From: a virus
IMG/VR virus record: IMGVR_UViG_3300045988_182790
Strand: one strand, 5' to 3'
DNA length: 64,000 nt
Shown: piece by piece, positions 3,160-47,608 of the stretch
Numbering within the stretch: the stretch's first letter is position 1
Layout: the number at the start of each line of letters is the position of its first letter
Notes under the pieces: generated by a model
Database searches by the model: none
What the model saw: only the letters and a program-made list of their open reading frames with translations
What the model was told of the DNA's origin: nothing
Position numbers and translations under genes: made by a program

Positions 3160-3395
3160 AGTTACCGCCTCTTTTTATTAAAATGAGGGGCAAAATGCCC
3201 CTCGGCTTTGGTAATTGTGGGAGTTTAGTCTTTTTCGCCAATCACTCCCAACTGTTCCAACACAGCAAGTGCTGTAGGAACGATAATACAGAAAAAGGTA
3301 CAATAGCAAATTCCCCAAGTATTCATGGTTTTTGCTCCTTTCATTGTAAAAACTGTATTATTGGTTACAGTCATATAGTGGGTGGAAATAAAGAT

Positions 3396-3431
3396 TTGTT
3401 CAAAAAAAGAGGAAAATTATTTTCCTCTTTT
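3396..3431. terminator. bidirectional rho-independent terminator
   Basis: Hairpin AGAGGAAAATtATTTTCCTCT flanked by an A-run and a T-run, directly after the stop of the 3431-5083 gene. Confidence 0.55.
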
Positions 3432-5083
3432 TAGCAAGCATTTTTTCTCTTTTTAGCGATTTCGTATTTAAGTCTTTCAATGATAATAGATGCTTCCTGT
3501 TTGCTGATATTCAGCATACTGTCGTCAATTTCTCGGCCTGCCTGCTCTGCAAGATTTTTTATAAACTGAATCTGTTTAATTGATGCAAATTGATTGCTCC
3601 AGCTATTCTTTTTGCTCCATAATGGTCTTGCTGCAGCATGATATGTTTCAAGATATTCTTTCACATGGTTAATGTTTGTTTGAATATCTGCTGGCTGATG
3701 CTGGTGTAATACAGCGTTGCCTTTCTTAATTACTGCTGACGTTATTCCTCTGGCATCTGTTTGAGGAATGGTGATTGATATTCCATCTCCAATTGATAGC
3801 CTAAGAGATTGGTCTGGCATTAGGATGAAATTCAAATCGTTTAGGTCAAAATTTTCATCCTCGGCAAAAAGATTGACCTTTTTTGCACCACGAATCCAGC
3901 TAACAGGGGTATCTGTGAGAACCTCAATAAGTTCACCTATTTCTGTAAGTTTACCGCGCAACTTAGTCTTATCTTTTACAAGGTCAGTTCCAAGGCCAAA
4001 TAATGTTGGAGCTGTACATATATCCAATCGCCCTGTAACACCCACACAATCAATTAATGTAAGTGTTTCCTTGCCAGGATATAGTCTTAATCCTCGCCCC
4101 ACTGCCTGATTATAAAGAGACTGATTGTTTGTAGGTCTTGCCATAATAACTGTTTCAATGAGAGGAATATCTGTACCCTCAGTAAAAACCATACAATTAA
4201 CAAGGCAAGGTATCTCTCTGTTCGTAAATCTCTCGATAATTTCAGCCCTATTTGGAGTATCTCCTGTAACTACTATAGAATTAGGAATATGGTCTGCAAT
4301 ACTATTGGCATGAGCAACGTTTGCCGCAAAAATGAGTGTTTGTCCTTTTGCGTACTGATGATATGCGTCGGCAACAGCTTCTACAACTTCTGGACGGTTG
4401 ATTGCATCACACAATTCATTAACTTTGAAATCGCCCATTTGTTTATGAACCTTTCTGAGGTCAAAGCCAACATCTACCTGAATACAATCAATATCAGTTA
4501 AAAATCCGTTTTTAATTGCCCACTTTATGTCTTTGGTATAAATAATGTCATCAAAAATTTTGTTTAAGTCAGCTTTATCGGCTCTATCTGGTGTAGCCGT
4601 AAAGCCAAGATGAACCCTTGGTTTGAAATAATCGTAAATCTTCCTATATGAATTAGCTGTTGCATGATGAGCTTCATCCGTAATAATGGTATCAAAATCG
4701 TATGGGTCAAACTTATCCAGTCTTCTGACAAGTGTTTGCACTGACGCAGACACCACCTCTTCGCCATTTGAATGTTCTTTCCCCTGCTCTATTCCAAATG
4801 AGCAGTCAAAATATTTCTCTGGCTGATGAACAAGCTCTTCTCTATGAGAAAGAATTAAGACTCTGCCTCTTCTTGGTAAATGAGAAAAAATAAATGTCTT
4901 GCCCAGTCCAGTCGCTAATACACACAAATAACTTCCAGCACCAGCATTTTCAATCGCATCAATGCACTCTTTTTGATAAGGTCTTAGTGTACTCTGGTCT
5001 GGAATATGTGGTGGGTCAAATATGATAGTTGATTTTTCCTTTGCGGTTTTGTTTTCACTTCTATTTTTCTTATTCTTTGCCAT
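3431..5083 (-). CDS. SF2 DEAH-box helicase (type III Res/UvsW-like)
   Basis: Motif I ATGLGKTF; motif II ITDEAHHA; motif III FTATP; motif VI QAVGRGLR. Confidence 0.8.
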   Translation of the reverse strand: MAKNKKNRSENKTAKEKSTIIFDPPHIPDQSTLRPYQKECIDAIENAGAGSYLCVLATGLGKTFIFSHLPRRGRVLILSHREELVHQPEKYFDCSFGIEQGKEHSNGEEVVSASVQTLVRRLDKFDPYDFDTIITDEAHHATANSYRKIYDYFKPRVHLGFTATPDRADKADLNKIFDDIIYTKDIKWAIKNGFLTDIDCIQVDVGFDLRKVHKQMGDFKVNELCDAINRPEVVEAVADAYHQYAKGQTLIFAANVAHANSIADHIPNSIVVTGDTPNRAEIIERFTNREIPCLVNCMVFTEGTDIPLIETVIMARPTNNQSLYNQAVGRGLRLYPGKETLTLIDCVGVTGRLDICTAPTLFGLGTDLVKDKTKLRGKLTEIGELIEVLTDTPVSWIRGAKKVNLFAEDENFDLNDLNFILMPDQSLRLSIGDGISITIPQTDARGITSAVIKKGNAVLHQHQPADIQTNINHVKEYLETYHAAARPLWSKKNSWSNQFASIKQIQFIKNLAEQAGREIDDSMLNISKQEASIIIERLKYEIAKKRKNAC

Positions 5084-5400
5084 TATTTTTTCATCCTTTT
5101 TGCTTTATGTATACTGATGTATTTGTTAGCACTTTGAGATTTTAAGAAAGTGCATTTGTAATACACAGCATTCTTTTTTATTGTCATTTCCTGAGGTTCG
5201 CCTGCAATCATAAGCCTTGCTAATCCATCCACAAAAAACACATCTATAGCGTATAATTGCTCAGGATTAATTTTGTATCTTGATTTAACAATCATATTTT
5301 TGTCAGACAGTTCAGTAATAACAGCATCATAATCCTGTTTTACATTCTGCTTTTTGCTAACAAAAGTTGCCATACATTCTATATTTTTCTTTTCTTCCAT
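5083..5400 (-). CDS. hypothetical protein (105 aa)
   Basis: Intact ORF with a class-B-like upstream motif (CATAGTGGATATTTTT at 5433-5448 on the + strand). Confidence 0.45.
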   Translation of the reverse strand: MEEKKNIECMATFVSKKQNVKQDYDAVITELSDKNMIVKSRYKINPEQLYAIDVFFVDGLARLMIAGEPQEMTIKKNAVYYKCTFLKSQSANKYISIHKAKRMKK

Positions 5401-5550
5401 TTAAAAACCTCGATTTACATTCTTTATGCAGACATAGTGGATATTTTTGGAAATTTGTTTTATAAAAATTTGATTTTTCATAAAATATTTTCAAAAAAGT
5501 ACCTACTATGTGAATAGAACAATAATTATAAGAAAGGAAGATTATATTTT

Positions 5551-6405
5551 ATGACTAATCAGCGATGTTACAAAGCAATTAAAGATACATCTTTTATAAA
5601 TACTGTAAATAAAATGCGTTCAACTGGTTCGCCTGCTTATGTTTGTTCTATAGAAACGACAGGACTTAATTCATATGACAATGAAATAATCTGCATTGAT
5701 GTTATAAAATGTCATTTTGAAGGAGCTGACTTAATAAAAGATGGCGAAAAGCGTTTTTTATGTAAACCAGAAACTCCATTATCAGAAGAAATTGAAAATA
5801 TTTCTGGAATTACCAATGAAATGTTAAGTACAGCTTTAGATGTTGAGACAATGATGAGCGAATTTGTTTCTGCCATAGGAAGTTCTCCTAACATTGTTGG
5901 GTTTAATATCATTGATTTCTGTTCTCCATTCTTCAAAATGGCTGGATTTAACAGTGGATATATGCCTGATTTATCTTCTGCCATTGATTTAATGTCGATT
6001 GCAAAAGCAACTCTTCCACTAGGAAGTTATAAGCTTAAAACAATTTGTAAAGCGCTGGGAATTAACGAAGCTGATTGCTTATCATCTGTTGTTTCTAGCA
6101 AGGCAAATATGAAATTTGAAGTATTTAAACAAATTTGTTCTCTTGTTCCTGCAGGAACCGAAGTTGCAGAGATTTTGGATATGAAATACTGGAAGAAATC
6201 ATATAATTGCAGATTTATTTATGTGTATACCAATTTTGGCAAAGTTGCTTTTAATTGCAAAACATTATACTGGCAGGAATGTGATGACGGATTTTTTGAT
6301 GTTGTAGACCTTGATAAGTTGTCATTAACCATTTGCCAGACATATAATTGCGCAAATATGTTTGAATTTGTAAAAAAGTTTGAAGCTAAACAGGGGGTAA
6401 AATAA
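5551..6405 (+). CDS. DnaQ-like (DEDD) 3'-5' exonuclease-fold protein, possibly inactive
   Basis: Exo I-like VCSIETTGL, but the first Asp is replaced by Ser. Exo II-like GFNIIDF. Exo III region NEADCLSS has no His. RBS AAAGGAAG 8 nt before the ATG. One of the few plus-strand genes. Confidence 0.5.
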   Translation: MTNQRCYKAIKDTSFINTVNKMRSTGSPAYVCSIETTGLNSYDNEIICIDVIKCHFEGADLIKDGEKRFLCKPETPLSEEIENISGITNEMLSTALDVETMMSEFVSAIGSSPNIVGFNIIDFCSPFFKMAGFNSGYMPDLSSAIDLMSIAKATLPLGSYKLKTICKALGINEADCLSSVVSSKANMKFEVFKQICSLVPAGTEVAEILDMKYWKKSYNCRFIYVYTNFGKVAFNCKTLYWQECDDGFFDVVDLDKLSLTICQTYNCANMFEFVKKFEAKQGVK

Positions 6406-6440
6406 GAGAGGCTGTTAATTAGCCTCTCTCTTTTTTTTTG
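6406..6440. terminator. bidirectional terminator
   Basis: Hairpin GAGAGGCTgttaattAGCCTCTC followed by T9. Confidence 0.55.
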
Positions 6441-13972: not shown

Positions 13973-14187
13973 AAAGGTTAATAATCCTTTTCACAATCAA
14001 ATTTCCCTACTGATATGGTGGGCATTTTGCAGGATTTGTTTTATAAAAAAAGCCAGTCAGCTTTTGCTGGCTGGTTGCAAAAATTCATTTCAATTTTTTG
14101 TTTTTTATGATATACTCTTGCCAAGGTATTTGCCTTATTATCTACTGATGGGTGGCTGTTTGTTGCCGAACAGTCATCCACCTTCAC

Positions 14188-22637: not shown

Positions 22638-22639
22638 GA

Positions 22640-24367: not shown

Positions 24368-24502
24368 GTTTATCCCTCACTTTCTTCTTTTACTCATATA
24401 GTGGGCAAAAAGTGAGATTTATACAACGAAAATTGCTTATTTTTCTTCCAAATTTCATATTCCTTATATCTAAAAAATTTAATATTGAATGGAGGAAAAA
24501 TT

Positions 24503-25334: not shown

Positions 25335-25463
25335 ATCTCCACCTCTTTTTGTGTTCCTATTAATATTGTGGGCATTTTTTCGCGATAATTCAATGCTTAT
25401 TTTTCTTCCAAATTTCATATTCCTTATATCTAAAAAATTTAATATTGAATGGAGGAAATTATT

Positions 25464-26297: not shown

Positions 26298-26803
26298 AAT
26301 AAAGAATACGCTACAACAAATGCTCGTTCAAGCAAGTGTTATAGCGTGTCCTCTTGTTATGATATATATTTGTAAAGGAGGTTATGTCAGAAACAATTTA
26401 TTTGTTTCTATACCTATATAGTGGGCATGACGTGGAAAATATTCAACATTATTTATACCTTTAACTTCATTTGTCGAATTTAACAATTTATCACCATTAT
26501 TTGTTTTTACTAGATATATTATTTTATCTTCCGTTTCTTTGTAAAAAATATCTGTAGATATATTTTCTAAATGCTCTACGTTTGTTTGCTATTTAATTTT
26601 TATTTACAAAAGTTCAGTTTAACCCACAATGAACTTCTTCTATAATCGTATAATTCTTACTTGTTGTAGGAGTAAATTCGATTTTATAATCTTCCTTTTT
26701 ATTTGCTTTTGCTATCCATACACTACACTTTTTTTTATTTGCAAATTCTTGTGCATTGTGCTTTGCCAAAGAATAAAACTTCATTTTCTACCTCACTAAA
26801 AGC

Positions 26804-28083: not shown

Positions 28084-28186
28084 AATATCAATCTCCTTTC
28101 AAAAAGCCCATAAATCAATCAATCAATAACTTTTTCCTTTTGTTTTTCTATTAATATAGTAGGCATATCATTACAAATATTCAATA

Positions 28187-30848: not shown

Positions 30849-31205
30849 GTTTTGTCTCCTAACGTCTAATTTAGCATTTATAAGTTTATATATTTTTATC
30901 CATCAATGTATCGTATTCAGATGGACTCATTTCTGATAGAATACTTTTTAAAAAATTGCATTTTTCGGTAAAAGGGCAAACTTCGCAATCCTTTTGGTTG
31001 GTCTATTTTTACACTCTTCAACTAAATTCTTTACTTTCATGTAATTCCTTTCTGCCCAAGTGGGCTAAATCCTAATTTTAGAGTTATTTTAATTTTCTGC
31101 TACTTTTATAATTTCAATTTATTTATACATTAATATAGTAGATATATATAAAAATTTATCCAATAAAAAACAGAGATAGTTTTATCTACCTCTGCTTTTT
31201 TGTTC

Positions 31206-32786: not shown

Positions 32787-33016
32787 GTTTTTTTATTCCT
32801 CTCTTTTTTACTTTAATCGGTGTTATTTATTTTTTATTTTTATTTTTTGCTCAGCTCTTGGGCGACTTGCAGACAGCCATTCAAGGCTAGAATATATGTT
32901 TTTACCCATATAAAATCCTTTCATTTTGTTTGTTATGTTATGATAGTGGGCAAAAATTGGATTTTGTTTTAAAAAAAATAGCAAGAAATGTAAAAACATC
33001 TCTTGCTATTTTCGTT

Positions 33017-35091: not shown

Positions 35092-35129
35092 AAAAGTTCC
35101 TTTCTACTATAGTGGGTAAATTGGTTGTT

Positions 35130-36341
35130 CTATCTAACAGAAATTGACGGTATATCGCAAGAACAAATACAATACCGCTTATCTTCTGAAATAGTTCCAT
35201 TTGCAACATTCACTGCGTGTTTATCTATTGTTTTTTCATAAATGTTTCTTACTGTTCTTGCGTTGCCAAAATTTCTTTGCCTTTGTTCGTATTTCATTCT
35301 CTCAACAAATTCTTTTAGGTAATCCGTTGACACCTTATATCCGTTTGTATGAGCCAGCTTCAAAAACATTTCTTGGAAGTTTTTCATCGAATAATTTCCA
35401 AACCACAAATAATGTTTAATTCGAGAGGCGATGCCTGGATTGGAATTAATGAAATTTTTCATTTCCGTCTCATAGCCAGCAAAAATGAATACAATATCAT
35501 CTCTATGGTCTTCCATTTCTTTGATAAGTGTTGCTATTGCTTCATCTCCGCCACTTCCTGTAAGCAATGCGTAGGCCTCGTCAATAAACAAAACGCCCCC
35601 CATACTCTTTTGAATGAGCATAGATGTTTTCTTTGCGCTTTCGCCTACATACCTCCCCTTAAGAAAGTTTCCATCGACTTCAACACACTGATTTTTCCTA
35701 ATATATCCATTCTGATACAAAAATCCTGCCATAATACGAGCAACAGTTGTTTTTCCTGTGCCTGCTGGCCCCATAAAAATCATGCTCATCGAATCTGTTG
35801 GATGAAATTGTCCTTTACCGCCGTCATCTTTCCATTTTTGTTTTTCAAACTGCATCTTTGCAATCAGCTCATTCATCATTGTTTTGGTTTCTTCCAAACC
35901 GATTAATTTATCCAATTCTTCCTGCGGATTTTTAACACCTTCATGGGTGATTTTTCGCATTGTTGCAGAGTCTAATGTTTTTTCTGACTCCATCATGCGT
36001 TGACGCTCTATTACATCCCTATCTTTACCAGACATTTTTTTTAAGCTGTTGTACTTTTTACTGTTTCCATTTTCGTCATATTCAACTTCATCTCTAAGGC
36101 TTTGTCTTGACTTGGTTAATATTGGGTATAAAACTATTCCAGCAATGGCAAGCATTGAGAATAAGACAATATACAGTGTTGAAAAATCTCTTTGAATTTC
36201 TCCACTTGATGTAGTAAATCCGCCTAGTGTTCTTTCAGTTAGCAAAAAATACAGTGCTCCAACAATGCCGCCGATAATTGCAAGAATATCAAGAACTGAG
36301 CCAAGAATTACTGCGTAGTATTTAAGTTCTTTATTTGTCAT
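35130..36341 (-). CDS. membrane-anchored AAA+ ATPase of the SpoVK/CbbX family
   Basis: Two N-terminal TM helices. Walker A GPAGTGKTT, Walker B VLFIDEAYAL, and the SpoVK/CbbX-type C-terminal helical lid. Confidence 0.8.
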   Translation of the reverse strand: MTNKELKYYAVILGSVLDILAIIGGIVGALYFLLTERTLGGFTTSSGEIQRDFSTLYIVLFSMLAIAGIVLYPILTKSRQSLRDEVEYDENGNSKKYNSLKKMSGKDRDVIERQRMMESEKTLDSATMRKITHEGVKNPQEELDKLIGLEETKTMMNELIAKMQFEKQKWKDDGGKGQFHPTDSMSMIFMGPAGTGKTTVARIMAGFLYQNGYIRKNQCVEVDGNFLKGRYVGESAKKTSMLIQKSMGGVLFIDEAYALLTGSGGDEAIATLIKEMEDHRDDIVFIFAGYETEMKNFINSNPGIASRIKHYLWFGNYSMKNFQEMFLKLAHTNGYKVSTDYLKEFVERMKYEQRQRNFGNARTVRNIYEKTIDKHAVNVANGTISEDKRYCICSCDIPSISVR

Positions 36342-37479: not shown

Positions 37480-38049
37480 CTATTTATCACACATTTCTTT
37501 TATTGTTCCAGCATTTACAGATATATTTGTATAATATACAAGAGAATAAACAAGTATATTGTCATAATTTTCATTTTTTATTGCTTGCTTAGTTACCTCA
37601 AGAACATTTTTTGTAAATGCTATAAATTCTGCTATTGCATCCAACAAAGGAGTATTGTCCATTATATCAATAGGCACTAAGGTTAAATTTGTTTCTTCGT
37701 CTGTGTAACACTCAATTGTTGTTAATGTGTTTGCCAGAATAAGAATTGTATCAATAATGTTTTGCATTATTGTCACAATAATATTTTTATCTTGCACGTT
37801 TGACAAATCATTGTTAAGGCACTCTATTTTGCTTACAATAGAAGCTATATCTTCTAGCTTATCTTCTTTTTCTGGCAATCCTTGTTGCCAACGAAGCTTT
37901 TTCTCAGATGGTATATTTTCTGTATCTGTATCAGAAATCATTAATTTGATTCCATCAATAAAGTCTTCACCTGCTCCAGAAATATTGTTTATATCTTTTA
38001 GTTCGCTTTTGTGAAACTTTCTTTTAATTTCTTTTATCTTATCAGTCAT
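37480..38049 (-). CDS. paralog family L protein (189 aa)
   Basis: Shares KSELKDINNISGAGEDFIDGIKL and RWQQGLPE blocks with the 24726 and 57289 proteins. Confidence 0.5.
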   Translation of the reverse strand: MTDKIKEIKRKFHKSELKDINNISGAGEDFIDGIKLMISDTDTENIPSEKKLRWQQGLPEKEDKLEDIASIVSKIECLNNDLSNVQDKNIIVTIMQNIIDTILILANTLTTIECYTDEETNLTLVPIDIMDNTPLLDAIAEFIAFTKNVLEVTKQAIKNENYDNILVYSLVYYTNISVNAGTIKEMCDK

Positions 38050-38117
38050 ATTTTTGACACTCCTTTTATCATATCGTAGATAAAATTTGAAAAATATTCA
38101 AGAATTTTCATTTATAC

Positions 38118-38153
38118 ACACAACATAATACAGTGCAGATTTTTTGCGCTTTC
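38118..38153. repeat. copy 2 of 36-bp promoter-region repeat
   Basis: CACAACATAATACAGTGCAGATTTTTTGCGCTTTCT, identical over 36 nt to 55791-55826. Confidence 0.7.
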
Positions 38154-38202: not shown

Positions 38203-40479
38203 TTACATGGCTACGATTTTTACGTCGTACCCATTCTCTGTTAATCTACCAACGACATCTGTAGATACTGTGAACTCTGTCTGACTTATATCAGACATTT
38301 CCTGCGTGTAAATTCTAAAGAAAAGTCCTGTTGTAAGGTCTGTTTCTTTATATCCCTGCGCAAAATTATAGATATTACACATATCTTCAATAGTTGGCGC
38401 AACAGCAAGAATTATTTTTGCCTGCTTATCAAGGACATTAAAGCTGTCAATAACAATCTGGTCTTCACCATTATTATCTGTGTCTTTATGTCCAATGATT
38501 TTTGTGATTGTTCCTGACTGAATGAGATTTTGATATTTCTCATAGGTTTTAGGAAAGCAAACGCCACTGATACTCTCTCCATCTTTGTCAGTGATTGTTA
38601 CAAATGCCATTTTGTCACCTTTTTTGGTTTTAATAACCTTTGCATCAGTGATGATTGCTGCCATTTTGACATTCGCTTTTTCATCTGCATTAACAATATC
38701 ATTGATAATCATGAGATTTGCGGTATCATAATCCTCTAAAGGATTTCCAGTAACCCACATTCCAAGAGCATCTACTTCTAAAAGAAGTCTTTTTTCTGTA
38801 GATAATGGGGCAACGTGTTTCTTTATAATACCTTTCATCTCATCACGAAGAATACTAAGTTCTCCCTGATATTTTCTAAGGTCAAGAACACGTTTGTTTT
38901 CCGCTTTCTCGTTTGTATATGACTGGTTTTCAAGCAAAGATATTTTTTCAATCTTCGTTTTAGCTTTTTTCCATACATCATCATAAGCCACAACATCAGT
39001 TGCACTTATTTCTCTGTTGATTGTGAAATCATCGCAAGCTCCAGAGTTAATAAGTTTTGCCACACAAGAAGCTCCGATTGTTGTTTTTTCAACAATCTCT
39101 TCGATTGAACGGAAATTGCCAGCTTTTTCTCTGTCTGCAACCAATACTTCTGCCGCACTCTTTAACCCTTTGATTGCTTTAAATCCTATTATGATGCCAT
39201 CTTTATATGGGTAATAATCTGCTTTGGATTCATTAATGTCTGGTCTATAAAGAGTGATGTTTGAAGCTTTACAATCAGCAACAAGCTGAGCTGTTTTGTC
39301 TGGTTGCCAGCCTATTATTGCGCACAAATATTCGCGCTTATAATGATATTTAAGCCATGCTGTAATATAAGATACAAGCGCATATGCTGCAGCGTGGGAT
39401 TTATTGAAACCATATTTAGCGAAAGGCATTAACTGGTCAAATAACCAATTTGCATCCTCTTCTGAAATATTTTGAGTTTCTTTACATCCTGTTACGAAAT
39501 CTGGTCTGACAGCGGCCAACTCTTCCTCATGTTTTTTGCTCATATGTCTTCTAACATTATCAGCATCACCCATGTCAAAGCCTGCCGCAGTTGTCATAAT
39601 GCTCATTACCTGCTCCTGATATACTGGGAACCCATATGTTTCAGACAAAATTGGTTCAAGAAAAGGGAATTTCTCCACAAATGGAGATTTTCTTCCAGTA
39701 TTCTTACAGTCAATAATGTCATCAATAAAATCCATTGGGCCAGGTCTGTATACAGAGATAGCAAGGATAATATCTTCGAAACAAGTAGGGTTAAGTCTTG
39801 TTAGCATCCCCTTCATTCCATCAGATTCTACCTGAAATACAAAGTTTGTATCTCCTTTAGCGTAAATATTCTGGAACACTTCTGTTTCAAAAGGAAGATT
39901 ATATGGCTCAATCTTTATGCCCTTTGTTTCGGTGATAATATGCATTGCATCAGTAATAGCATTAAGGTTTTTAAGCCCTAAGAAGTCCATTTTGATAAAT
40001 CCTAACTGGCCTTCGCACTGAACCATATCTGCTTGAACAGCAAATACTTCATTTCCATCATCATCGTTTGATTTCATAAGAGGTATATAATTCTCTACGT
40101 CAGTTCCATCAGAAATAATAATTCCTGCGGCGTGTGTTCCGTATGATGTTATATAGTTCTCAATCATCATTGCATAATCAATGATTGTCAGCGCTGTTTC
40201 ATTGCCGCTAAATTCAGCTTTCAACTCGTTTTCGTAATTAACGAGTTTTGCATTTGGTTCATCACCGATTAATTTACGCATTGACTTGTAAATGGAAATA
40301 TATTTCTTTTTATCTCCGCTCTCTTCAAGTCCAAGAAGCTTTGGTGCGTACTCAAGCGCGCTTTTTGCAGCAAGACGATTTTTTGTCATAATGTTTGCCA
40401 CAGAACGTTCACCGTATTTTTCCTTGACATATTTGATAGTGATTTCTCTTGCATGAGCTGAGAAATCTGTGTCAATATC
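38203..40479 (-). CDS. dnaE: DNA polymerase III alpha (DnaE-type) exon 2
   Basis: Begins DIDTDF (DnaE consensus DIDIDF). Contains GFNKSHAAAYALVSY (DnaE FNKSHSAAYA motif), fingers/thumb regions, and a C-terminal OB-like region. Confidence 0.85.
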   Translation of the reverse strand, partial: DIDTDFSAHAREITIKYVKEKYGERSVANIMTKNRLAAKSALEYAPKLLGLEESGDKKKYISIYKSMRKLIGDEPNAKLVNYENELKAEFSGNETALTIIDYAMMIENYITSYGTHAAGIIISDGTDVENYIPLMKSNDDDGNEVFAVQADMVQCEGQLGFIKMDFLGLKNLNAITDAMHIITETKGIKIEPYNLPFETEVFQNIYAKGDTNFVFQVESDGMKGMLTRLNPTCFEDIILAISVYRPGPMDFIDDIIDCKNTGRKSPFVEKFPFLEPILSETYGFPVYQEQVMSIMTTAAGFDMGDADNVRRHMSKKHEEELAAVRPDFVTGCKETQNISEEDANWLFDQLMPFAKYGFNKSHAAAYALVSYITAWLKYHYKREYLCAIIGWQPDKTAQLVADCKASNITLYRPDINESKADYYPYKDGIIIGFKAIKGLKSAAEVLVADREKAGNFRSIEEIVEKTTIGASCVAKLINSGACDDFTINREISATDVVAYDDVWKKAKTKIEKISLLENQSYTNEKAENKRVLDLRKYQGELSILRDEMKGIIKKHVAPLSTEKRLLLEVDALGMWVTGNPLEDYDTANLMIINDIVNADEKANVKMAAIITDAKVIKTKKGDKMAFVTITDKDGESISGVCFPKTYEKYQNLIQSGTITKIIGHKDTDNNGEDQIVIDSFNVLDKQAKIILAVAPTIEDMCNIYNFAQGYKETDLTTGLFFRIYTQEMSDISQTEFTVSTDVVGRLTENGYDVKIVAM

Positions 40480-40886
40480 CATTCATACCCTCGGTTTCCC
40501 GATATTTTGACTTTTAGGGGACTAGACTATATCTCGCTATTTAAAATAGCATGATGCACTTCGGTTAAGTATTCATCTCTTAACCTACTCTACTCGATTC
40601 GTCCTTAATAGGCTTATTCTCTTATTACTAAGAGTTACATTTATTAGTTCTTTCGATAGTCGTTACACTTTTGTTTATAATGTAATAAACACTTAGCACG
40701 GTATCACCTGCTATCTGTTTCCAGACCGTAGGCTCTCTTACGAAGCGGATTCGTCTATGGATTAAGCTGTATATCTCGTTGTGACGCTTCATACAGCAGT
40801 CTTATCTAGCTTCTACCGTTAGCACGTAACTCTTAGGCTACGCACACCCTTGAAAAAAGGTTCACATCATACGCCCAATATAGTTT
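40480..40886 (-). other. group I self-splicing intron (ORF-less, about 407 nt) in dnaE
   Basis: Exon 1 ends ...RVSMP (cct) and exon 2 starts DIDTDF, restoring the conserved RVSMPDIDxDF. Intron GGGCGT 11 nt in can pair with exon AUGCCU to form P1 with a U·G at the splice site. The last intron nt is G. AGATATAGTC is present (group I S-element-like). Confidence 0.65.
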
Positions 40887-42533
40887 AGGCATACTAACAC
40901 GATGAGGATTAAGAAATCGCTCAAACAAAAGATTGTATTTCATTGGGTCTATTTCTGAAATATCACTTAAATAACAAGCAAGCGAACCTCCCGCACTGCC
41001 TCGGCCTGGCCCGATTTCAGTTGAATTATCTCCATGACTTTTTGCATACTGAATGAAGTCAGCAACCTCGCAGAAATAATCATTAAAGCCCATCTGGTCA
41101 ATGATACTTAACTCGTATTCAAGTCTTTCCCTGTATTCCTTTGAAAATCCGTTTGGATAACGTTTAGGAATACCATCCTCACAAAGCTTACGAAGTCTTT
41201 CCTTTGCATTTTCAAACTTCGGATAATGTTTTGCGTCAGAAAGTTCTGGATTACACATTTTGGCGATAACTTCAATGTTTCCCATCGCTTCATCAACAAC
41301 ATCTTCTGGATAAAGCTGTAATAACATTTCAGCTAATTCATCGCCTGTTTTGAAATACAATTCATCATCGCCTGTAATAGCTTCTCGCCAAGGTCTATCC
41401 TGAGAAATTGACGCCAGATTTTCAAGAAGAAGTCTCTTCTTTGCATCTGTCTTATTTGCCATGTGGACATCATTTGTGGCCACAAGCGGAATATTCATTT
41501 CTCTTGCAAGTTTGACTATTACTGGATATATCATGGCTTCTGTATCTATGCCATGGTACTGAATTTCACAATAAAAGTCTGACTCAAAAACATCTACGAA
41601 AAACTTTGCGTACTTTTTACCCACAATGTAAAGTTCATCATCGTTTTTCTTTCTGGCCTCTAACAATGCAATTGCATCTTTATTCTTCTGAATAGTTTCC
41701 AATTTGGTCTTGTTCTTCGAAATAAGATTTTTGTTTGCTTTGTTATTGTTTTTTATTTCTTGTATTTGAGCCTTAAGAGATGAAATCTCATCCTTTGCTT
41801 CTTGTGCCTGAGCTTTTTCAATCTCAAGCGCTGCAAGCTTGAATTCTCTTTCTTCACTATCTTTGATTTTCTTGATTGCATTTTGTGTGGCACCAAATTT
41901 CTTTGATGCAATCGGAGTTAATTCTGCAATCTTTTCATTGATAGCTAGGATTTGCTTTTCTGCGACAGCATTGGATTCAAGAGCCTGTTGCAATCCGTCT
42001 GACAAATTGGATTTCGAAGATTCAATTCGATTTTGGATTTTTCTAATCTCTTTATCAATAAACAGATTGTAAGATAATGGTGTTGCTAATACTCCGCCAA
42101 CGCAGGCACTTGTTGCAACAACGTGTCCATACCCTAACGAGCCTTTACCGAAAAATTTCTTCAAATCCTTTAATTCGCCTACTGGTCTGCCAGAAATAAA
42201 ATTTCGATTTGTTTCTGATACAAACCTTGAGATTGCCTGAATACCTTCATAATCTTTTGCTAAAAGAACTAGATGTGCTCTCTTTTTTATTATGAAAGTT
42301 TCAGTTACAGGGATTTCAGTGTTGATATAAGCTTCAACACCAAGAATTGGTTTAATGTCATTCTCTTTGGCTGCATTATAAAAATCAAGCCAATTCCAAC
42401 AGCCTCCATGGTCTGTTATGGCTATAGCAGGCATTTTTAATTCTTTAGCCTTGCTGATACATTCTGATACAGTCATAGCTCCGTCATTGAGCGACGCATC
42501 AGTATGTACGTGTAGATTGATATTTGTTTTCAT
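40887..42533 (-). CDS. dnaE: DNA polymerase III alpha (DnaE-type) exon 1 (PHP domain with coiled-coil insertion)
   Basis: PHP motifs HVHTDASLNDGA and ITDHGG. Ends GGSLACYLSDISEIDPMKYNLLFERFLNPHRVSMP. K/E-rich insertion of about 130 aa inside the PHP domain. The track ORF continues into the intron to 40833. Confidence 0.85.
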
Positions 42534-42587: not shown

Positions 42588-42686
42588 AAAAGTGAAGTAA
42601 GCGATGTGATATATACAAATAGAGGGCATATTTGAGAAAATATTCAAAAAAAAGAACCACAATTTCTTGCGGTTCTAATTTTTTGT

Positions 42687-43502: not shown

Positions 43503-43691
43503 CTACAATGTGAAAATATAATAAAAGCAGAGGATTATTATGCCAATGTCTACTAAATAGCCAACGCCATAAGCAAATATTTCTGCTCTCGAATTATAAA
43601 TGCTTCTTACTTGCTCTGCTAATGGTTTTGTCATTCTGATACCAAAAACAATAATTGCAAGTAGTATTAATTTTATAACTGGTGTGGTCAT
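43503..43691 (-). CDS. small membrane protein (62 aa)
   Basis: Two hydrophobic helices. Confidence 0.35.
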   Translation of the reverse strand: MTTPVIKLILLAIIVFGIRMTKPLAEQVRSIYNSRAEIFAYGVGYLVDIGIIILCFYYIFTL

Positions 43692-43911
43692 TTTTATCCC
43701 CCCTTCTTTTATTATGAATATCTTATCATTCCTTATTTCTTTTTACAAGACTGACTTATGATATCATTGTTACCAAATGCTTGCTTAATCATCTAATTTA
43801 ATAGGACACTTTTCTAATATCTCATACCCATTGGCTTCTAAGCACTCTTTTACGCTTTCATCCATTACATAACAAATTTCCTGCACTGTCTGAACATCTT
43901 CAATAAATCTG

Positions 43912-44094
43912 TCAGCTTTGCACCATCCTTGTGTGTTGTTTTTCATCTGGATTAACATAATCCCATCCGCAAACTAATACAAGATTTAGTCTCAGCGAAT
44001 CATACCCATCATAAATTTCCATTGAATCTACCTTATATACAAGGTTATCTTCGTTTTTTACAAAAATTGCTTTGTTTTCTAATAGCGCTTTCAT
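43912..44094 (-). CDS. hypothetical small protein; possibly 5' part of a frameshifted gene
   Basis: A 48-codon open frame continues downstream (43768-43913) in another frame. Confidence 0.3.
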   Translation of the reverse strand: MKALLENKAIFVKNEDNLVYKVDSMEIYDGYDSLRLNLVLVCGWDYVNPDEKQHTRMVQS

Positions 44095-44115
44095 TTTTTT
44101 ACTCCTTTTGTGAAA

Positions 44116-44307
44116 CTATTTCAATTGTCTTAATGCTTCATTTGCCTTTTCCTCTGATGAGTAGTAATAACCTTTACTATCTATTCCTTCTATGTCTGAA
44201 ATTGTCAAATCTCTTATTGACTTAGACATTATCATTGCATATTTACTGTTTTTGTCAACTATTGTCCAAACATAATCGTTTGGATATTCAATTTTAATCC
44301 CTGCCAT
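44116..44307 (-). CDS. hypothetical protein (63 aa)
   Basis: Intact small ORF. Confidence 0.35.
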   Translation of the reverse strand: MAGIKIEYPNDYVWTIVDKNSKYAMIMSKSIRDLTISDIEGIDSKGYYYSSEEKANEALRQLK

Positions 44308-44535
44308 TATTTATTTTTAGTAGCAGACTGTATCGTATGTATGAAAGTATTGTAAAATAAACATTTATCACTTCCTTTGCATAAAATACTGTCCACTACG
44401 TTCTCCTTTCCTAAAATTATCCTTAATCCTTCGTTTAGGATATTGATAGCAGCATTTTTGTCACGGCTAATTATAAGACCACAATTTTATTCTTCTACTA
44501 CTTCGAAACTATTTGCCTGAGTTTCTTACATTGTT

Positions 44536-44829
44536 CTAAAACATCAATACTGCTTCTTTATTACGAAGTTTAATACAGATTGTTCTATCACTATTATTAA
44601 TCTCATAATCAACTAAGTCATATTCGTAAACATCAACTTCTGTATTCGATGATTTTGATTTCAGATATAACATTTCTGTTCCAATGGTTTCTGCAAATTT
44701 CTCGATGTTTATAAGGTCTGAAAATCCATATGTGGAAATTGGGCCATATACAATTCCTATAAGATTTTTGCTTGTTTTTGATATTTTATATGTGTCAACT
44801 ATTAGTTGTTTGAATTTTTCGTTTTTCAT
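44536..44829 (-). CDS. hypothetical protein (97 aa)
   Basis: Intact ORF with RBS. Confidence 0.4.
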   Translation of the reverse strand: MKNEKFKQLIVDTYKISKTSKNLIGIVYGPISTYGFSDLINIEKFAETIGTEMLYLKSKSSNTEVDVYEYDLVDYEINNSDRTICIKLRNKEAVLMF

Positions 44830-45140
44830 AATGACTCCTCTTTAATTTATTGCATTCAAAAGCAGTTCTTCTATATCATAATTATGCGCTTTTGCCATTC
44901 TTTTTGCAACGGCTTTGTCGTTACCATCTCCACTTTTATATATCCTACCAATAGCAAATCGTGTCCAGATTTGTTATTACCTCATCCAAAGTTCAGTTTA
45001 AATATCCATTGGGTCACATTCTGAATTAGGACATTCGCCATAATCTTCATAGCACTTACTGCAACAAAACTGGCATTCCATCCATCACCTATTTTGCAAT
45101 CATCACACACTGATGGTTCTCTGCAATCGTCTTCTATGGT

Positions 45141-45458
45141 TCATTCTCCTTCTAAATCCATAATCGCTCCACAATTAGGACAATATTTTGACTTTATTTT
45201 CTGGTTAGCATAATCAGTTTTATATACTTTCTTGCTACAAACAGAACAATATACACCTTCATTTGCACATTCATCTAATAGAAGCCAACTGCCATGTTTT
45301 CTAACTTCTGAATTTTTTATTAGATAATCATACATATTTTCAAGTCCAAGATTATAGATTCCCATAAACCCTTTCATTTGTCCTGTTTCTATGAGTTCTT
45401 CTTTGCTTATATTGCAAGCTTTAATCATTGCATCATATTTCTTACCATCTTCTGTCAT
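45141..45458 (-). CDS. zinc-ribbon protein (105 aa)
   Basis: CSVCSKK...CPNCG four-Cys ribbon. Confidence 0.45.
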   Translation of the reverse strand: MTEDGKKYDAMIKACNISKEELIETGQMKGFMGIYNLGLENMYDYLIKNSEVRKHGSWLLLDECANEGVYCSVCSKKVYKTDYANQKIKSKYCPNCGAIMDLEGE

Positions 45459-45504
45459 ATCTATTCTCCAATATAAAATGTTAGTTCAATGGTGGTTTTA
45501 CTTT

Positions 45505-45729
45505 CTATAATTTGCACCAATCATCTGTATGGTATTTATTCCAATCATCTATCGCCACTTGTGTCCCATGAGTAATATGTGATATACTGTTTCTACCGCA
45601 AATAGGACAAATTAGCTGAATCCATTCCAAATTACATTTCACTTGCGGAAGAACATTACATTTACGACATGGCTTTGCTTGTGTCCAATTTGTGCCTCTT
45701 TGAGAACGTGATTTCAATACCCCATACAT
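45505..45729 (-). CDS. zinc-finger small protein (74 aa)
   Basis: CRKCN...CPICG. Its start overlaps a 17-nt tandem duplication (GTATGGGGTATTGAAAT x2). Confidence 0.4.
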   Translation of the reverse strand: MYGVLKSRSQRGTNWTQAKPCRKCNVLPQVKCNLEWIQLICPICGRNSISHITHGTQVAIDDWNKYHTDDWCKL

Positions 45730-46081
45730 ATTTCAATACCCCATACTTCAATAGTATCAATAGGATAACCTAATTCAGTTGCCAAATTCTTTTTAGCTTC
45801 ATATTCAGACACGGCTTTTCTGTAATATGTTTCCTTAGTAACTGTACAAAATAACATAAACGTTAACATATTCTATCTCCTCCCTAAATCCTTATTTATT
45901 TCAATTTTATACGATTATATATCCTATCATTTTGAATTAAATTTTCGTGTTCACTTCGTAAAGTTTTTCTAAATTCAGAATATGACGTTACACGACCACA
46001 AATTGCTTCGCATTGCCATTCATAATTGAGTTTTTTCTTTACTTGTCTTTTGTTCATATTATTCTTTACCTCTCGAAATGC

Positions 46082-46450
46082 TTAAAAGTCTTTGCCCCAT
46101 TCGTTTTTTTTAATAGCTTCTTCGATTGAATGAGCTAATTTGTTTGAACCGTTTTCTATGTACGAAAATTGCCACTTTCCATCAAAGAATTTTACAACAT
46201 CGAAATATTCTTTTTTTTCTTCATTTCCAAAACAAAATACTTTCGGGTGCGGAATCTCTAATAACTCAAAACCAGATACATCATAACCATCATTAGCAAT
46301 TAACTCTGCAATTGTATCAAAATCGGTTTTTGGAATATCTTCATTCCAACTTATTAAGTGAATATAATCTTCTCCTATTTCTCCTACGTCGCACATAGGA
46401 AACCATCTGTCGAACTCCATAATATCTTTAACATCGCTGATATTGCTCAT
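46082..46450 (-). CDS. hypothetical protein (122 aa)
   Basis: Intact ORF preceded by CTAAGGATTTAAGAAAGAGAGG. Confidence 0.45.
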   Translation of the reverse strand: MSNISDVKDIMEFDRWFPMCDVGEIGEDYIHLISWNEDIPKTDFDTIAELIANDGYDVSGFELLEIPHPKVFCFGNEEKKEYFDVVKFFDGKWQFSYIENGSNKLAHSIEEAIKKNEWGKDF

Positions 46451-46478
46451 ATTATCCTCTCTTTCTTAAATCCTTAGT

Positions 46479-46832
46479 TTATGAATTATCTTTAACCCAT
46501 ATAACAGCACCTCTCGGATGTGAATATGGTATAGGAATTTGATATTTTTCTACCGAACCATATTCAAAAATCCATGCATAAGGTGTCTTATATCTTTCTA
46601 TCAACTCTTCCCATGAAATATCTACTTGATGATTTTTCTTATTGGTTTCCCATAATTGCTTTGTGAGAGGTATAGAGTCTGTAATATTTGCTGTTCCAAA
46701 TACACAACCTGTTCCACTTTTTGCAATTGCAATTTTCCCTCTTTTTGTAGTATTACTTCCACGGATTTCCCAAAGTTTGTTATAATCAAAAATTCTGTCA
46801 GCCCAATAAGGTTTTACAATTAAGATATCCAC
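46479..46832 (-). CDS. ASCH/PUA-like domain protein
   Basis: MDILIVKPYWADRIFDYNKLWEIRGSNTTKRGKIAIAKSG resembles the ASCH N-terminal beta-barrel pattern. Confidence 0.45.
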   Translation of the reverse strand: MDILIVKPYWADRIFDYNKLWEIRGSNTTKRGKIAIAKSGTGCVFGTANITDSIPLTKQLWETNKKNHQVDISWEELIERYKTPYAWIFEYGSVEKYQIPIPYSHPRGAVIWVKDNS

Positions 46833-46859
46833 AATTATTCCTTTCGACTAAAGTCTAAT

Positions 46860-47084
46860 CTACTTAAGTTTCTCTGCTATTTTTCTAATGTTATCAAGGA
46901 CAGTATCACAGTTTCTCCAAACTACCCAACTGCAATCTCCATCTTTTTCAGCACTCATTACTTGAGTTATTATATCCATACTTGCGTCAGACAATTTTTC
47001 AGCAATGTCATCCCATTTTTGAGATTCAATCCACCTTGAAAATCTTGGTTGATAGTATTTAACTTCCTCATTTTCAACTTTCAT
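46860..47084 (-). CDS. hypothetical protein (74 aa)
   Basis: Intact ORF preceded by TAAGGATTTACGGAGG. Confidence 0.4.
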   Translation of the reverse strand: MKVENEEVKYYQPRFSRWIESQKWDDIAEKLSDASMDIITQVMSAEKDGDCSWVVWRNCDTVLDNIRKIAEKLK

Positions 47085-47087
47085 TTG

Positions 47088-47315
47088 TCAACCTCCGTAA
47101 ATCCTTATAAAACTTGCATTTAAAGTTTCGTTGCAAATATCTATCCAACTAAAATCTGATTCTCCGCTCACAAGATATAGTCTTACATCCGACTCTCCAA
47201 TTTCATCTGAGACTTTCCATATCGAATCTTTCTTTGCAACCCCAAATTTATCAGTTATGCTACCATCATCATCTTCAAAAGGAATTGTAAGATTTTCTTT
47301 GCAAACATATTTATC
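47088..47315 (-). CDS. hypothetical protein (about 75 aa; track ORF extends to 47408)
   Basis: Likely start MDKYVCK with ATAAGGATTTAGCGGAGG immediately upstream. Confidence 0.35.
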   Translation of the reverse strand, partial: DKYVCKENLTIPFEDDDGSITDKFGVAKKDSIWKVSDEIGESDVRLYLVSGESDFSWIDICNETLNASFIRIYGG

Positions 47316-47352
47316 CATAGCTTCTACCTCCGCTAAATCCTTATTTATCATG

Positions 47353-47553
47353 CTAAAAAATAATCTTGTTTTTTTTGCTGCATCCCAGCTTCCAAAAACG
47401 TTGTTCACATCTTTTCACAATTCCATAACAATCATATGTCATATCTATCTCTAAATATGGTTCTTCTGGAATATATCCACAATGTTTTATAAATTCATTT
47501 GTTATGTCATTAACACTATGAACTTCGATAATATAATGCTCTAATAAATTCAT
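47353..47553 (-). CDS. hypothetical protein (66 aa)
   Basis: Class-B motif at 47592-47608 and RBS GGGAGGGGGA. Confidence 0.4.
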   Translation of the reverse strand: MNLLEHYIIEVHSVNDITNEFIKHCGYIPEEPYLEIDMTYDCYGIVKRCEQRFWKLGCSKKNKIIF

Positions 47554-47591
47554 TCCCCCTCCCAGTAATCACCCTAATCTTGTTTTATATT

Positions 47592-47608
47592 TATATAGTG
47601 GGTAAAAA
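47592..47608 (-). promoter_or_regulatory. class-B conserved upstream motif (example)
   Basis: TTTTTACCCACTATATA on the gene strand, preceded by TTTTTGTTAGATAAAAT. About 10 similar copies in the window. Confidence 0.5.

What the first reader, a model, noticed from the sequence alone, without database searches (positions are those of the whole stretch)
3372..47608. Class B: a second upstream motif, TTTTTGCCCACTATAT, resembling the T7/SP6/K11 promoter core
About ten genes (copies at 3372, 5433, 24385, 25352, 26415, 28153, 31131, 32940, 35107 and 47592) carry TTTT(T/A)(G/C)CCCACTATA(T/G) 17-45 nt before the start. The core CCCACTATAG/T is close to the -7..+1 core of single-subunit RNAP promoters (T7 CTCACTATAG, K11 CACACTATAG). 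Two copies also share an upstream TTTnTGTTAGATA box. Together with class A this suggests two transcription classes, such as host-dependent versus element-RNAP-dependent, or early versus late.
Basis: seen in the sequence. Interest (0 to 1): 0.65.

Follow-up and report, generated by a model that had tools for sequence, protein, structure and literature searches.

The report
Sigma-70-type promoters, not T7-like
The repeated CCCACTATAT motif is real, but it is the -10 half of a two-part bacterial (sigma-70-type) promoter used about 20 times on a large, undescribed conjugative-plasmid-like element, so its likeness to phage T7 promoters looks coincidental.

Summary
All ten sites exist, on the minus (coding) strand. 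The literal 16-mer matches only one site; the shared core is C(C/T)AC(T/A)AT.

Every site also has a -35-like hexamer (TTGAAT, TTGAAC, TAAAAC or TTAGAT) exactly 17 nt upstream. A scan found five more window sites (5504+, 14020, 38078, 42624, 57905) and five more elsewhere on the same 100-kb contig. All 15 window sites are intergenic and upstream of genes, and several directly follow terminators.

Relatives with 53-73% DnaE identity keep the promoter at orthologous positions, upstream of dnaE and of the flotillin gene. The spacing is kept but the hexamers differ (AACTAT, TACTAT, CACTAT, TATTAT).

The T7 reading is not supported:
- The likeness stops at the 7-mer CACTATA.
- The base after TATA is G in 1 of 19 sites.
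- Orthologous sites carry TATTAT.
- No single-subunit RNA polymerase or sigma gene was detected in the 84 kb of the contig seen.

Two promoter classes do exist. Class A (CAAATCTCATATT) has no -35 box, is conserved across the whole family, and is the stranger one.

Which sigma reads class B is unresolved. The invariant C at -13 and -10 leaves room for a dedicated factor. This is an ordinary kind of feature in a new element family.

The parts
3375..3403 (-). Class B promoter: TTGAAC-17-CACTAT. It sits directly after a terminator, upstream of a small ORF and the RecD2-like helicase gene (1057-3159).
5434..5462 (-). Class B promoter: TAAAAC-17-CACTAT, 33 nt before gene 5083-5400, which is followed by the SNF2/ResIII helicase gene.
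5481..5509 (+). Class B promoter on the plus strand: TAAAAT-17-TACTAT, 41 nt before the plus-strand RNase T-like gene 5551-6405. It is divergent from site 5439.
14015..14043 (-). Class B promoter: TAAAAC-17-CACCAT, after a terminator. It lies in tandem with a class A motif (13963) upstream of the 682-aa primase/polymerase-like gene.
24398..24426 (-). Class B promoter: TTGTAT-17-CACTAT, 30 nt before gene 23633-24367. It abuts a 56-bp exact duplicate that carries a plus-strand class A motif.
25365..25393 (-). Class B promoter: TTGAAT-17-CACAAT, 30 nt before gene 24726-25334. It is back-to-back with a plus-strand class A motif that drives gene 25464-25985.
26418..26446 (-). Class B promoter: TTGAAT-17-CACTAT, with a 141-nt leader before gene 26013-26276.
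28156..28184 (-). Class B promoter: TTGAAT-17-TACTAT, 72 nt before gene 27757-28083.
31135..31163 (-). Class B promoter: TTGGAT-17-TACTAT, directly after a terminator, with a long leader before gene 30465-30848.
32943..32971 (-). Class B promoter: TAAAAC-17-CACTAT, after a terminator, upstream of a ~29-codon ORF and the flotillin/SPFH gene 31206-32786. The position is conserved in L004 and L005.
35109..35137 (-). Class B promoter: TTAGAT-17-CACTAT, 17 nt before gene 34849-35091, which heads the operon ending in the PIN-PhoH gene. The 'TGTTAGATA box' is its -35 region.
38073..38101 (-). Class B promoter: TTGAAT-17-TACGAT, 23 nt before gene 37480-38049.
42619..42647 (-). Class B promoter: TTGAAT-17-CTCTAT, after a terminator, in tandem with class A (42583) upstream of the dnaE 5' part (40833-42533). 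The tandem arrangement is conserved in four relatives.
47595..47623 (-). Class B promoter: TTAGAT-17-CACTAT, after a terminator, 41 nt before gene 47353-47553. That gene heads a run of about 13 small ORFs extending down to ~43.5 kb.
57900..57928 (-). Class B promoter: TTGAAT-17-TACAAT, 32 nt before gene 57289-57867.

Best explanation
Class B sites are bipartite sigma-70-family promoters. Each has a -35 box T(T/A)(G/A)AA(C/T), a 17-bp spacer (18 bp in one case) and a -10 box (C/T)AC(T/A)AT preceded by an invariant C.

They are read by the host's multi-subunit RNA polymerase. The sigma is most likely the primary sigma-A or a very close functional equivalent. Transcription should start about 6-8 nt downstream of the hexamer, not at the base after TATA.

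The promoters head insulated transcription units (terminator, promoter, ribosome-binding site, gene or genes) on a large conjugative-plasmid-like element of a low-GC Gram-positive host. They drive helicase and exonuclease genes, many small or accessory ORFs and a three-member paralog family. They also lie in tandem upstream of class A promoters at dnaE and at the primase-like gene.

Shown here: the motif, its bipartite geometry, its placement and its conservation in relatives. Inferred: that transcription starts there, and which sigma is used.

At the level of architecture (a sigma-70-family promoter) I put about 0.9. The figure below is for the full statement, including primary-sigma usage.
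For: Geometry:
- A -35-like hexamer lies exactly 17 nt upstream in all ten reader sites.
- Spacing histogram: 11 cases at 17 nt against 0-2 at every other spacing from 10 to 25. Of 21 minus-strand C[CT]AC[TA]AT occurrences, 11 have the partner at 17 nt.
- -11A and -7T, the two bases essential for sigma-70-type -10 recognition (established knowledge), are kept in 19/19 (-7T) and 18/19 (-11A) sites on the contig.

Placement:
- The matrix scan gives 15 sites and none in shuffles. Five of them were not used to build the matrix. All are intergenic and all are oriented toward a downstream gene, including the one plus-strand site before one of the few plus-strand genes.
- The -35 box often overlaps the T-tract of an upstream terminator.

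Conservation:
- Upstream of dnaE in five elements (53-73% DnaE identity), the -35 box, the 17-nt distance and the nAnTAT -10 box are kept while the spacer sequence is not. The same holds upstream of the flotillin gene.
- The 55%-identity human-gut relatives use TTGGAC-17-TATTAT, which is close to the sigma-A consensus.
- Clade L004/L005 has 11 sites with consensus TAAAACGATT...C-TACTAT.

No alternative polymerase was seen in 84 kb of the contig.
Against: - The hexamers are poor matches to TTGACA/TATAAT. CACTAT scores 3/6 and TAAAAC 2/6, so the generic sigma-70 scanner does not pick these sites up.
- C at -13 and C at -10 are invariant in about 30 sites of the window clade and the L004/L005 clade. 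That is more constraint than sigma-A normally imposes at those positions, and it hints at a dedicated sigma or an overlapping regulator site.
- There are no transcript data.
- The host is unknown.
- 16 kb of the contig, and whatever lies beyond it, were not seen.
Confidence: 0.55

Rival explanations
1. The architecture is the same (a bipartite sigma-70-family promoter), but it is read by a dedicated sigma factor rather than by sigma-A. That factor could be encoded by the element, too divergent for Pfam or lying in the unseen part, or it could be a host alternative sigma. It would specifically require C(-13) and C(-10), recognising 'C-YACTAT'. Class A and class B would then form a self-contained transcription programme.
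For: - C(-13), A(-11), C(-10), A(-8) and T(-7) are invariant or nearly so across ~30 sites in two clades.
- The -10 flavour changes with the lineage: TATTAT in L015/L019/L021, TACTAT in L004/L005, CACTAT in the window. That looks like co-evolution with a cognate factor.
- The -35 consensus TAAAAC(G/A)A in many sites is far from TTGACA.
- Consensus sigma-A-type promoters are not enriched in the window: 91 found against 75.5 +/- 9.5 in shuffles.
- There is precedent that a single base at -13 separates closely related sigma factors: C(-13) for E. coli sigma-S (PMC3333887).
Against: - No sigma-70 domain was found in any ORF of the window or in the 20 kb of the contig next to it, nor in the annotated loci of relatives.
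- L010 (CACTAT) and L015 (TATTAT) carry different -10 hexamers at the same dnaE promoter, which suggests tolerance rather than strict specificity.
- Similarity that extends beyond the hexamers within subgroups (for example ATGCC-YACTAT-ATTAATAG) suggests part of the uniformity comes from duplication of promoter cassettes.
Confidence: 0.3
2. Class B is a promoter for a T7/SP6/K11-type single-subunit RNA polymerase encoded by the element, with initiation immediately after TATA.
For: The 7-mer CACTATA is identical to the -7..-1 core of T7-like promoters (my own knowledge of the T7 consensus TAATACGACTCACTATAGGGAGA). It occurs in most copies.
Against: - A -35 partner at a fixed 17-nt spacing is not a feature of single-subunit polymerase promoters.
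- Flanking positions do not match T7: for site 24403, 2 of 10 upstream and 2 of 6 downstream positions (read directly).
- The base after TATA is G in only 1 of 19 sites.
- Orthologous sites in relatives read TATTAT, AACTAT or CTCTAT.
- No T7-type motifs A, B or C, no DxDGD motif and no Pfam RNA polymerase domain were found in the window, L001/L173, L004 or L005.
Confidence: 0.03
3. The motif is not itself a promoter. It could be a dispersed repeat, an IS or recombination terminus, or mainly the operator of an element-encoded DNA-binding regulator that happens to lie upstream of genes.
For: - Some copies sit in or next to duplicated modules: 56-bp exact repeats at 24434-24489 and 25394-25449.
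- Subgroups share sequence beyond the hexamers.
- The strong conservation of CC-CACTAT-AT could reflect a protein operator overlapping the -10 box.
Against: - The spacers between the two boxes are unrelated in sequence while their length is fixed.
- The sites do not flank the TnpB/IS elements as pairs.
- Their orientation always matches the downstream gene, including the single plus-strand copy.
- They follow terminators and precede ribosome-binding sites.
- An operator role could coexist with promoter function, but it does not explain the -35 box or the spacing.
Confidence: 0.05

Closest known systems
Bacterial sigma-70 / sigma-A housekeeping promoters (TTGACA - 17 bp - TATAAT)
   Same: - Two hexamers 17 bp apart.
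- -11A and -7T are kept.
- TTG is present in most -35 boxes.
- The sites are intergenic, on the coding strand and ahead of Shine-Dalgarno sequences.
- Relatives carry near-consensus versions (TTGGAC-17-TATTAT).
   Different: - The -10 box in this lineage is C-(C/T)ACTAT, with invariant C at -13 and -10 and usually C at -12.
- The -35 box is TTGAAT, TAAAAC or TTAGAT rather than TTGACA.
- TG, where present, lies one base further upstream than in a classical extended -10 box.
E. coli sigma-S (RpoS)-selective promoters
   Same: This is a sigma-70-family promoter in which a C at -13, immediately upstream of the -10 hexamer, is a hallmark of selectivity between closely related sigma factors (PMC3333887). 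Class B likewise has an invariant C at -13 and a pyrimidine at -12.
   Different: - Firmicutes have no RpoS.
- The rest of the class B hexamer (ACTAT) differs from the sigma-S hexamer consensus as I recall it (my own knowledge, not checked here).
- The spacer is 17 rather than 16 bp.
- This is an analogy only, and no membership is claimed.
T7/SP6/K11 single-subunit RNA polymerase promoters
   Same: They share the 7-mer CACTATA and an AT-rich stretch upstream of it.
   Different: - There is no conserved -17..-8 specificity region matching any T7-like promoter.
- There is no +1 G.
- There is a required-looking -35 box at 17 bp.
- No cognate polymerase gene was seen.
- The core is not conserved at orthologous sites in relatives.
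Two-tier promoter programmes of large phages (Bacillus phage SPO1: host sigma-A early promoters, then gp28 and gp33/34 promoters; T4 late promoters, which have a -10 box only)
   Same: A sigma-A-like bipartite class (B) coexists with an element-specific class that has no -35 box (A: CAAATCTCATATT here, CCATATTTAT or CCATATTTAA in relatives). Class A is conserved across the family. The two occur in tandem before some replication genes.
   Different: - The element looks like a conjugative plasmid (TraG-like coupling protein here; ParM-like proteins in relatives), not a phage.
- No phage-type sigma was identified.
- A temporal order is not shown.

Membership tests
Sigma-70-family bipartite promoter | Two conserved elements (-35 and -10) separated by 17 +/- 1 bp | tested here: met
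   All 15 window sites have a spacer of 17 bp, and one further contig site has 18 bp. The spacing histogram peaks at 17 (11 cases against 0-2 elsewhere).
Sigma-70-family bipartite promoter | A at -11 and T at -7 of the -10 hexamer | tested here: met
   -7T is present in 19/19 and -11A in 18/19 sites on the contig, and both in 10-11 of 11 sites in L004/L005.
Sigma-70-family bipartite promoter | Located upstream of genes, in their orientation, in non-coding DNA | tested here: met
   15 of 15 sites are intergenic, against 15% intergenic DNA overall. All face a downstream gene 17-156 nt away.
Sigma-70-family bipartite promoter | Conserved as a functional element in relatives (boxes and spacing kept, spacer free to vary) | tested here: met
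   Alignments of the dnaE and flotillin upstream regions in 5 and 3 elements respectively.
Sigma-70-family bipartite promoter | Transcription starts 5-9 nt downstream of the -10 box and depends on a sigma-70-family factor | not testable with these tools
   No transcript data and no biochemistry are available.
Primary sigma-A consensus promoter (TTGACA/TATAAT) | At least ~9 of 12 matches to the consensus hexamers | tested here: not met
   Typical class B sites score 5-8 of 12 (for example TAAAAC/CACTAT 5, TTGAAT/CACTAT 7, TTGAAT/TACAAT 9). None appears among the listed matches of the generic scan of 22-39 kb, which shows the top 60 of 91.
T7-like single-subunit RNA polymerase promoter | Continuous ~23-bp conserved sequence from -17 to +6, with a specificity region at -12..-8 | tested here: not met
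   Only CACTATA is shared. Positions downstream of the hexamer carry little information. The upstream information lies in a separate box 17 bp away.
T7-like single-subunit RNA polymerase promoter | Initiating G at +1 immediately after TATA | tested here: not met
   The base after TATA is T in 13, A in 5 and G in 1 of 19 sites.
T7-like single-subunit RNA polymerase promoter | Cognate single-subunit RNA polymerase gene on the element | tested here: inconclusive
   None was found in the window, in the 20 kb adjoining it on the contig, or in the loci of relatives, by Pfam or by motif search. About 16 kb of the contig, and any sequence beyond the contig, were not seen.
IS or repeat terminus | Copies occur as paired ends flanking a transposase or mobile unit, with similarity running through the whole repeat | tested here: not met
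   The sites are single and gene-proximal, with unrelated spacers. The TnpB genes (20937-22106, 55975-57246) are not bracketed by them.

The most novel reading that the evidence does not exclude
Class B is read by a dedicated sigma-70-family factor, not by the host's sigma-A. The factor would be encoded by the element, undetectable with Pfam or located in the unseen part. Its -10 specificity would centre on C(-13)/C(-10) ('C-YACTAT') and would co-evolve with the lineage (TATTAT, then TACTAT, then CACTAT). Together with the family-wide class A promoters, which have no -35 box, this would give an undescribed family of 100-kb-plus conjugative elements of gut and rumen Firmicutes its own two-tier transcription programme.
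Probability: 0.25. Interest if true: 0.55.

Novelty: new member of a known kind. Interest (0 to 1): 0.3.

Why it matters
- It removes a tempting but wrong lead, a T7-like polymerase system on a plasmid-like element. In its place it gives a concrete, testable promoter model: box sequences, spacing and a predicted start site.
- It provides a promoter map (15 window sites and 5 more on the contig) for a widespread but unannotated family of large conjugative elements from gut and rumen metagenomes. The family carries its own DnaE, primase, Tad/Flp pilus genes and many small ORFs.
- The more interesting open question it exposes is what reads the family-wide class A promoters, which lack a -35 box. 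A related question is whether the unusual C(-13)/C(-10) signature of class B marks a dedicated sigma factor.
- Both classes could be useful as parts or annotation markers for these elements.

Tried and rejected
Searches for annotated or close relatives:
- Megablast of 15 kb against the phage and plasmid collections found no match.
- tblastn of DnaE against plasmids gave at most 35% identity. The AAA ATPase against phages gave only distant hits.
- IMG/VR scans with the protein and with the alignment found nothing closer than 38%.
- The GTDB species-representative scan gave only an unrelated alphaproteobacterial DnaE.
- So no annotated or isolate relative was available to name the host or supply a full gene list.

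Literature:
- The 'Hodor' megaplasmid preprint describes different elements: 44-47% GC, Rep_3 and sortases, with no mention of DnaE, Tad or promoters.

Searches for a sigma factor or RNA polymerase:
- Pfam, PHROGs and NCBIfam on essentially all window ORFs and neighbouring contig ORFs, plus regex searches for catalytic motifs, found nothing.

Attempts to read the rest of the contig:
- I tried to walk to its last 16 kb. The last protein search returned a 94%-identical representative from another contig. The 48% homolog led to an unrelated siphophage.

Considered and rejected for class B:
- Sigma-54: no GG/GC -24/-12 pair.
- Sigma-D/sigma-28: TAAA-15-GCCGATAT does not align.
- ECF-type: some sites have AAC in the -35 box, but there is no CGT-type -10 box.
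- Sporulation sigma E/F/G/K consensus sequences (recalled from memory, not aligned by a tool).
- A classical extended -10 box: the TG is one base too far upstream.

Other:
- The three paralogs driven by class B promoters show no sigma-like features.
- An Rfam search of the dnaE insert found nothing, even at E <= 1.

Full report
**1. Observation**

The motif lies on the minus strand, which carries almost all genes of the window.
- The 16-mer as written matches once, at 24396-24411.
- CCCACTATA with up to one mismatch gives 18 hits against 7.7 +/- 2.8 expected. No shuffle reached 18, and 15 of the 18 are on the minus strand.
- All ten listed copies are present. Relative to the 16-mer they carry 0-7 mismatches.
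- What they really share is C(C/T)AC(T/A)AT, usually followed by AT.

**2. Anatomy**

Aligned on the core, every copy has a -35-like hexamer exactly 17 nt upstream of (C/T)AC(T/A)AT. The hexamers are TTGAAT, TTGAAC, TTGTAT, TTGGAT, TTAGAT or TAAAAC.
- A spacing histogram over all -10-like words on the minus strand shows 11 partners at 17 nt and 0-2 at every other spacing from 10 to 25. The plus strand shows no peak.
- A matrix built from the ten sites finds 15 sites in the window and none in 20 Markov shuffles. The five new ones are 5504(+), 14020, 38078, 42624 and 57905.
- All 15 are intergenic, although intergenic DNA is only about 15% of the window. All point at a downstream gene, including the single plus-strand copy, which precedes one of the few plus-strand genes.
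- The distance from the hexamer to the start codon is 17-48 nt for ten sites and 72-156 nt for five.
- Many sites sit directly on the T-tract of an upstream terminator hairpin, giving the layout terminator, promoter, ribosome-binding site, gene.
- Five more sites lie on the same contig outside the window, one of them with an 18-nt spacer.
- The consensus of the 19 fixed-spacing sites is tt-TtgaAt-Aaat....aaataTaCC-cACtAT-at.

**3. The element**

The window is positions 35311-99310 of a 100.3-kb metagenomic contig.

Genes found in the window and the adjoining part of the contig:
- a split DnaE and a DnaG-type zinc-ribbon protein;
- RecD2-, UvrD- and SNF2-type helicases;
- a PARP-like enzyme;
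- PIN-PhoH, flotillin and an AAA ATPase;
- a Tad/Flp pilus cluster (CpaF-like ATPase, TadB/C-like and RcpC/CpaB-like proteins);
- an S8 peptidase;
- two TnpB genes in the window and a third on the adjoining part of the contig;
- just outside the window, a TraG/VirD4-type coupling protein.

Relatives add ParM-like ALP_N, TraG, GGDEF/EAL and chemotaxis-type genes. No phage hallmark was found. The family is common in human-gut and rumen metagenomes, on contigs of 50 to 350 kb. It is absent at close range from PLSDB, INPHARED, IMG/VR and the GTDB representatives. It is not the recently described 'Hodor' megaplasmids. I therefore treat it as a large conjugative-plasmid-like element of a low-GC, Shine-Dalgarno-using (Firmicute-type) host.

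**4. Comparative evidence**
- In L004 and L005 (73% DnaE identity), class B appears at 11 sites with consensus TAAAAC-GATT...C-TACTAT-A.
- L010 has TTGGAC-17-CACTAT. The 55%-identity human-gut group (L015, L019, L021) has TTGGAC-17-TATTAT.
- Upstream of dnaE, five elements keep the same layout: terminator T-tract, -35 box, 17 nt of unrelated spacer, -10 box (CTCTAT, AACTAT, AACTAT, CACTAT, TATTAT), then a class A motif.
- The promoter upstream of the flotillin gene is likewise kept in three elements.
- Conserved boxes and spacing with a free spacer are what a functional bipartite promoter should show.

**5. Test of the T7-like reading**
- The likeness is confined to the 7-mer CACTATA. For site 24403, only 2 of 10 upstream and 2 of 6 downstream positions agree with the T7 consensus. 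This is a direct comparison with TAATACGACTCACTATAGGGAGA, recalled from my own knowledge.
- The base after TATA, which would be +1, is T in 13, A in 5 and G in 1 of 19 sites.
- A partner box 17 bp upstream is not part of single-subunit polymerase promoters.
- Orthologous sites carry TATTAT or AACTAT.
- No T7-type motif, no DxDGD motif and no Pfam RNA polymerase or sigma domain occurs in the window, in the 20 kb of the contig adjoining it, or in the loci of relatives.
- About 16 kb of the contig could not be reached.

**6. Which sigma?**

The geometry and the invariant -11A and -7T say sigma-70 family. Near-consensus versions in relatives, and the tolerance shown at the dnaE promoter, argue for the primary sigma.

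Several observations argue against a plain sigma-A reading:
- The window lineage's boxes are weak matches to TTGACA/TATAAT, at 5-8 of 12 positions.
- Generic consensus promoters are not enriched: 91 found against 75.5 +/- 9.5 in shuffles.
- C(-13) and C(-10) are invariant over about 30 sites in two clades.

A C at -13 is a known discriminator between E. coli sigma-70 and sigma-S (PMC3333887), so a dedicated sigma-A-like factor is a live alternative. Part of the uniformity probably reflects duplication of promoter cassettes. Subgroups share flanks such as ATGCC-YACTAT-ATTAATAG, and two sites abut an exact 56-bp repeat.

I put about 0.9 on 'sigma-70-family promoter'. Within that, I put roughly 0.55 on the primary sigma and 0.3 on a dedicated factor.

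**7. Two classes**

- Class A (CAAATCTCATATT or ATTTCATATT) occurs at about 20 intergenic minus-strand sites and 4-5 plus-strand sites.
- For most sites its first base lies 36-58 nt before the start codon, usually right after a terminator, and it has no -35 partner.
- It is conserved in every relative examined, as CCATATTTAT or CCATATTTAA.
- Classes B and A occur in tandem before dnaE and before the primase-like gene.
- What reads class A is unknown. It is the more unusual of the two.

**8. Verdict**

The promoter and two-class interpretation is supported, and the T7-like mechanism is not. Class B is a new member (a lineage-specific flavour) of the ordinary sigma-70-type promoter kind, on an undescribed family of large conjugative elements. 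Interest is modest. It rises only if the C(-13)/C(-10) signature turns out to mark a dedicated sigma.

Noticed in passing
window, about 20 minus-strand sites (e.g. 1014, 10451, 11619, 13963, 15507, 17636, 19519, 22157, 29573, 37038, 42583, 43459, 51163, 55734, 59597) and plus-strand sites 24453, 25413, 37171, 57959/57984: Class A motif CAAATCTCATATT / ATTTCATATT. It starts 36-58 nt before most start codons, usually right after a terminator, and has no -35 partner. It is conserved in all relatives (CCATATTTAT or CCATATTTAA in L006, L008, L010, L015). No cognate sigma or activator was identified. It is more unusual than class B.
   Followed up: partly
window 40483-40832 (-), between the two dnaE ORFs 40833-42533 and 38203-40482: dnaE is split by a ~350-nt non-coding insert whose sequence is conserved in L004, L010 and L015. 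In L006/L007 the insert carries an HNH/NUMOD4 homing-endonuclease ORF, and in L005 it is absent (unsplit 1305-aa DnaE). L010 additionally has an intein. The insert looks like a self-splicing intron, yet there is no Rfam match even at E <= 1.
   Followed up: partly
window 20816-20888 (-): RAGATH-18 RNA (72.8 bits) lies immediately downstream of the TnpB gene 20937-22106. A remnant of a MerR-like IS607-type TnpA N-terminus lies nearby in 22107-22799. A second TnpB (55975-57246) has no Rfam hit next to it.
   Followed up: no
window 24726-25334, 37480-38049, 57289-57867 (all -); possibly also 28187-28675: Three (perhaps four) paralogous acidic proteins of ~190-200 aa with no family assignment share an N-terminal K-E-I-x-x-K-x-H-K-S-E-I-K motif and an RWxxGL motif. 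The first three each have their own class B promoter.
   Followed up: partly
window 38119-38149, 55790-55820, 37075-37105 (-): A 31-nt repeat, GCGCAAAAAATCTGCACTGTATTATGTTGTG, occurs as two exact copies and one diverged copy. It consists of a short hairpin followed by TGTATTATGTTGTG. It sits upstream of the class B site at 38078, in the intergenic gap downstream of the second TnpB gene (55975-57246), and in the 36999-37201 gap. Its function is unknown.
   Followed up: no
window 24434-24489 and 25394-25449: An exact 56-bp duplication carries a plus-strand class A promoter back-to-back with two different minus-strand class B promoters. The second module drives a CdiA-CT RNase A-like toxin-domain gene (25464-25985, +). 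The first drives a small plus-strand ORF (~24485-24709).
   Followed up: partly
window 43503-47553 (-): A run of about 13 small ORFs (50-120 aa, several with CxxC pairs) lies behind the single class B promoter at 47600, with no recognisable families. It resembles the small-gene, anti-defence-type islands of conjugative plasmids, but this was not tested.
   Followed up: no
window 49454-55689 (-): A Tad/Flp-type pilus cluster (CpaF-like T2SSE ATPase, TadB/C-like T2SSF, RcpC/CpaB-like SAF protein, small hydrophobic ORFs) lies on an element that also has a TraG-type coupling protein (L173 20356-21576). The same cluster sits next to dnaE in L008.
   Followed up: partly
window 28697-28744 (-), gap 28676-28820: The intergenic region upstream of gene 28187-28675 has neither a class A nor a class B motif. 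It contains two direct copies of TAGTATC...GATGATAC, which look like an operator.
   Followed up: no
window 22559-22636 (-): A tRNA-Met (CAT) gene is preceded by a double class A motif (22792/22785). Relatives such as L015 and L033 carry tRNA genes, some behind TTGGAC-17-TATTAT promoters.
   Followed up: no
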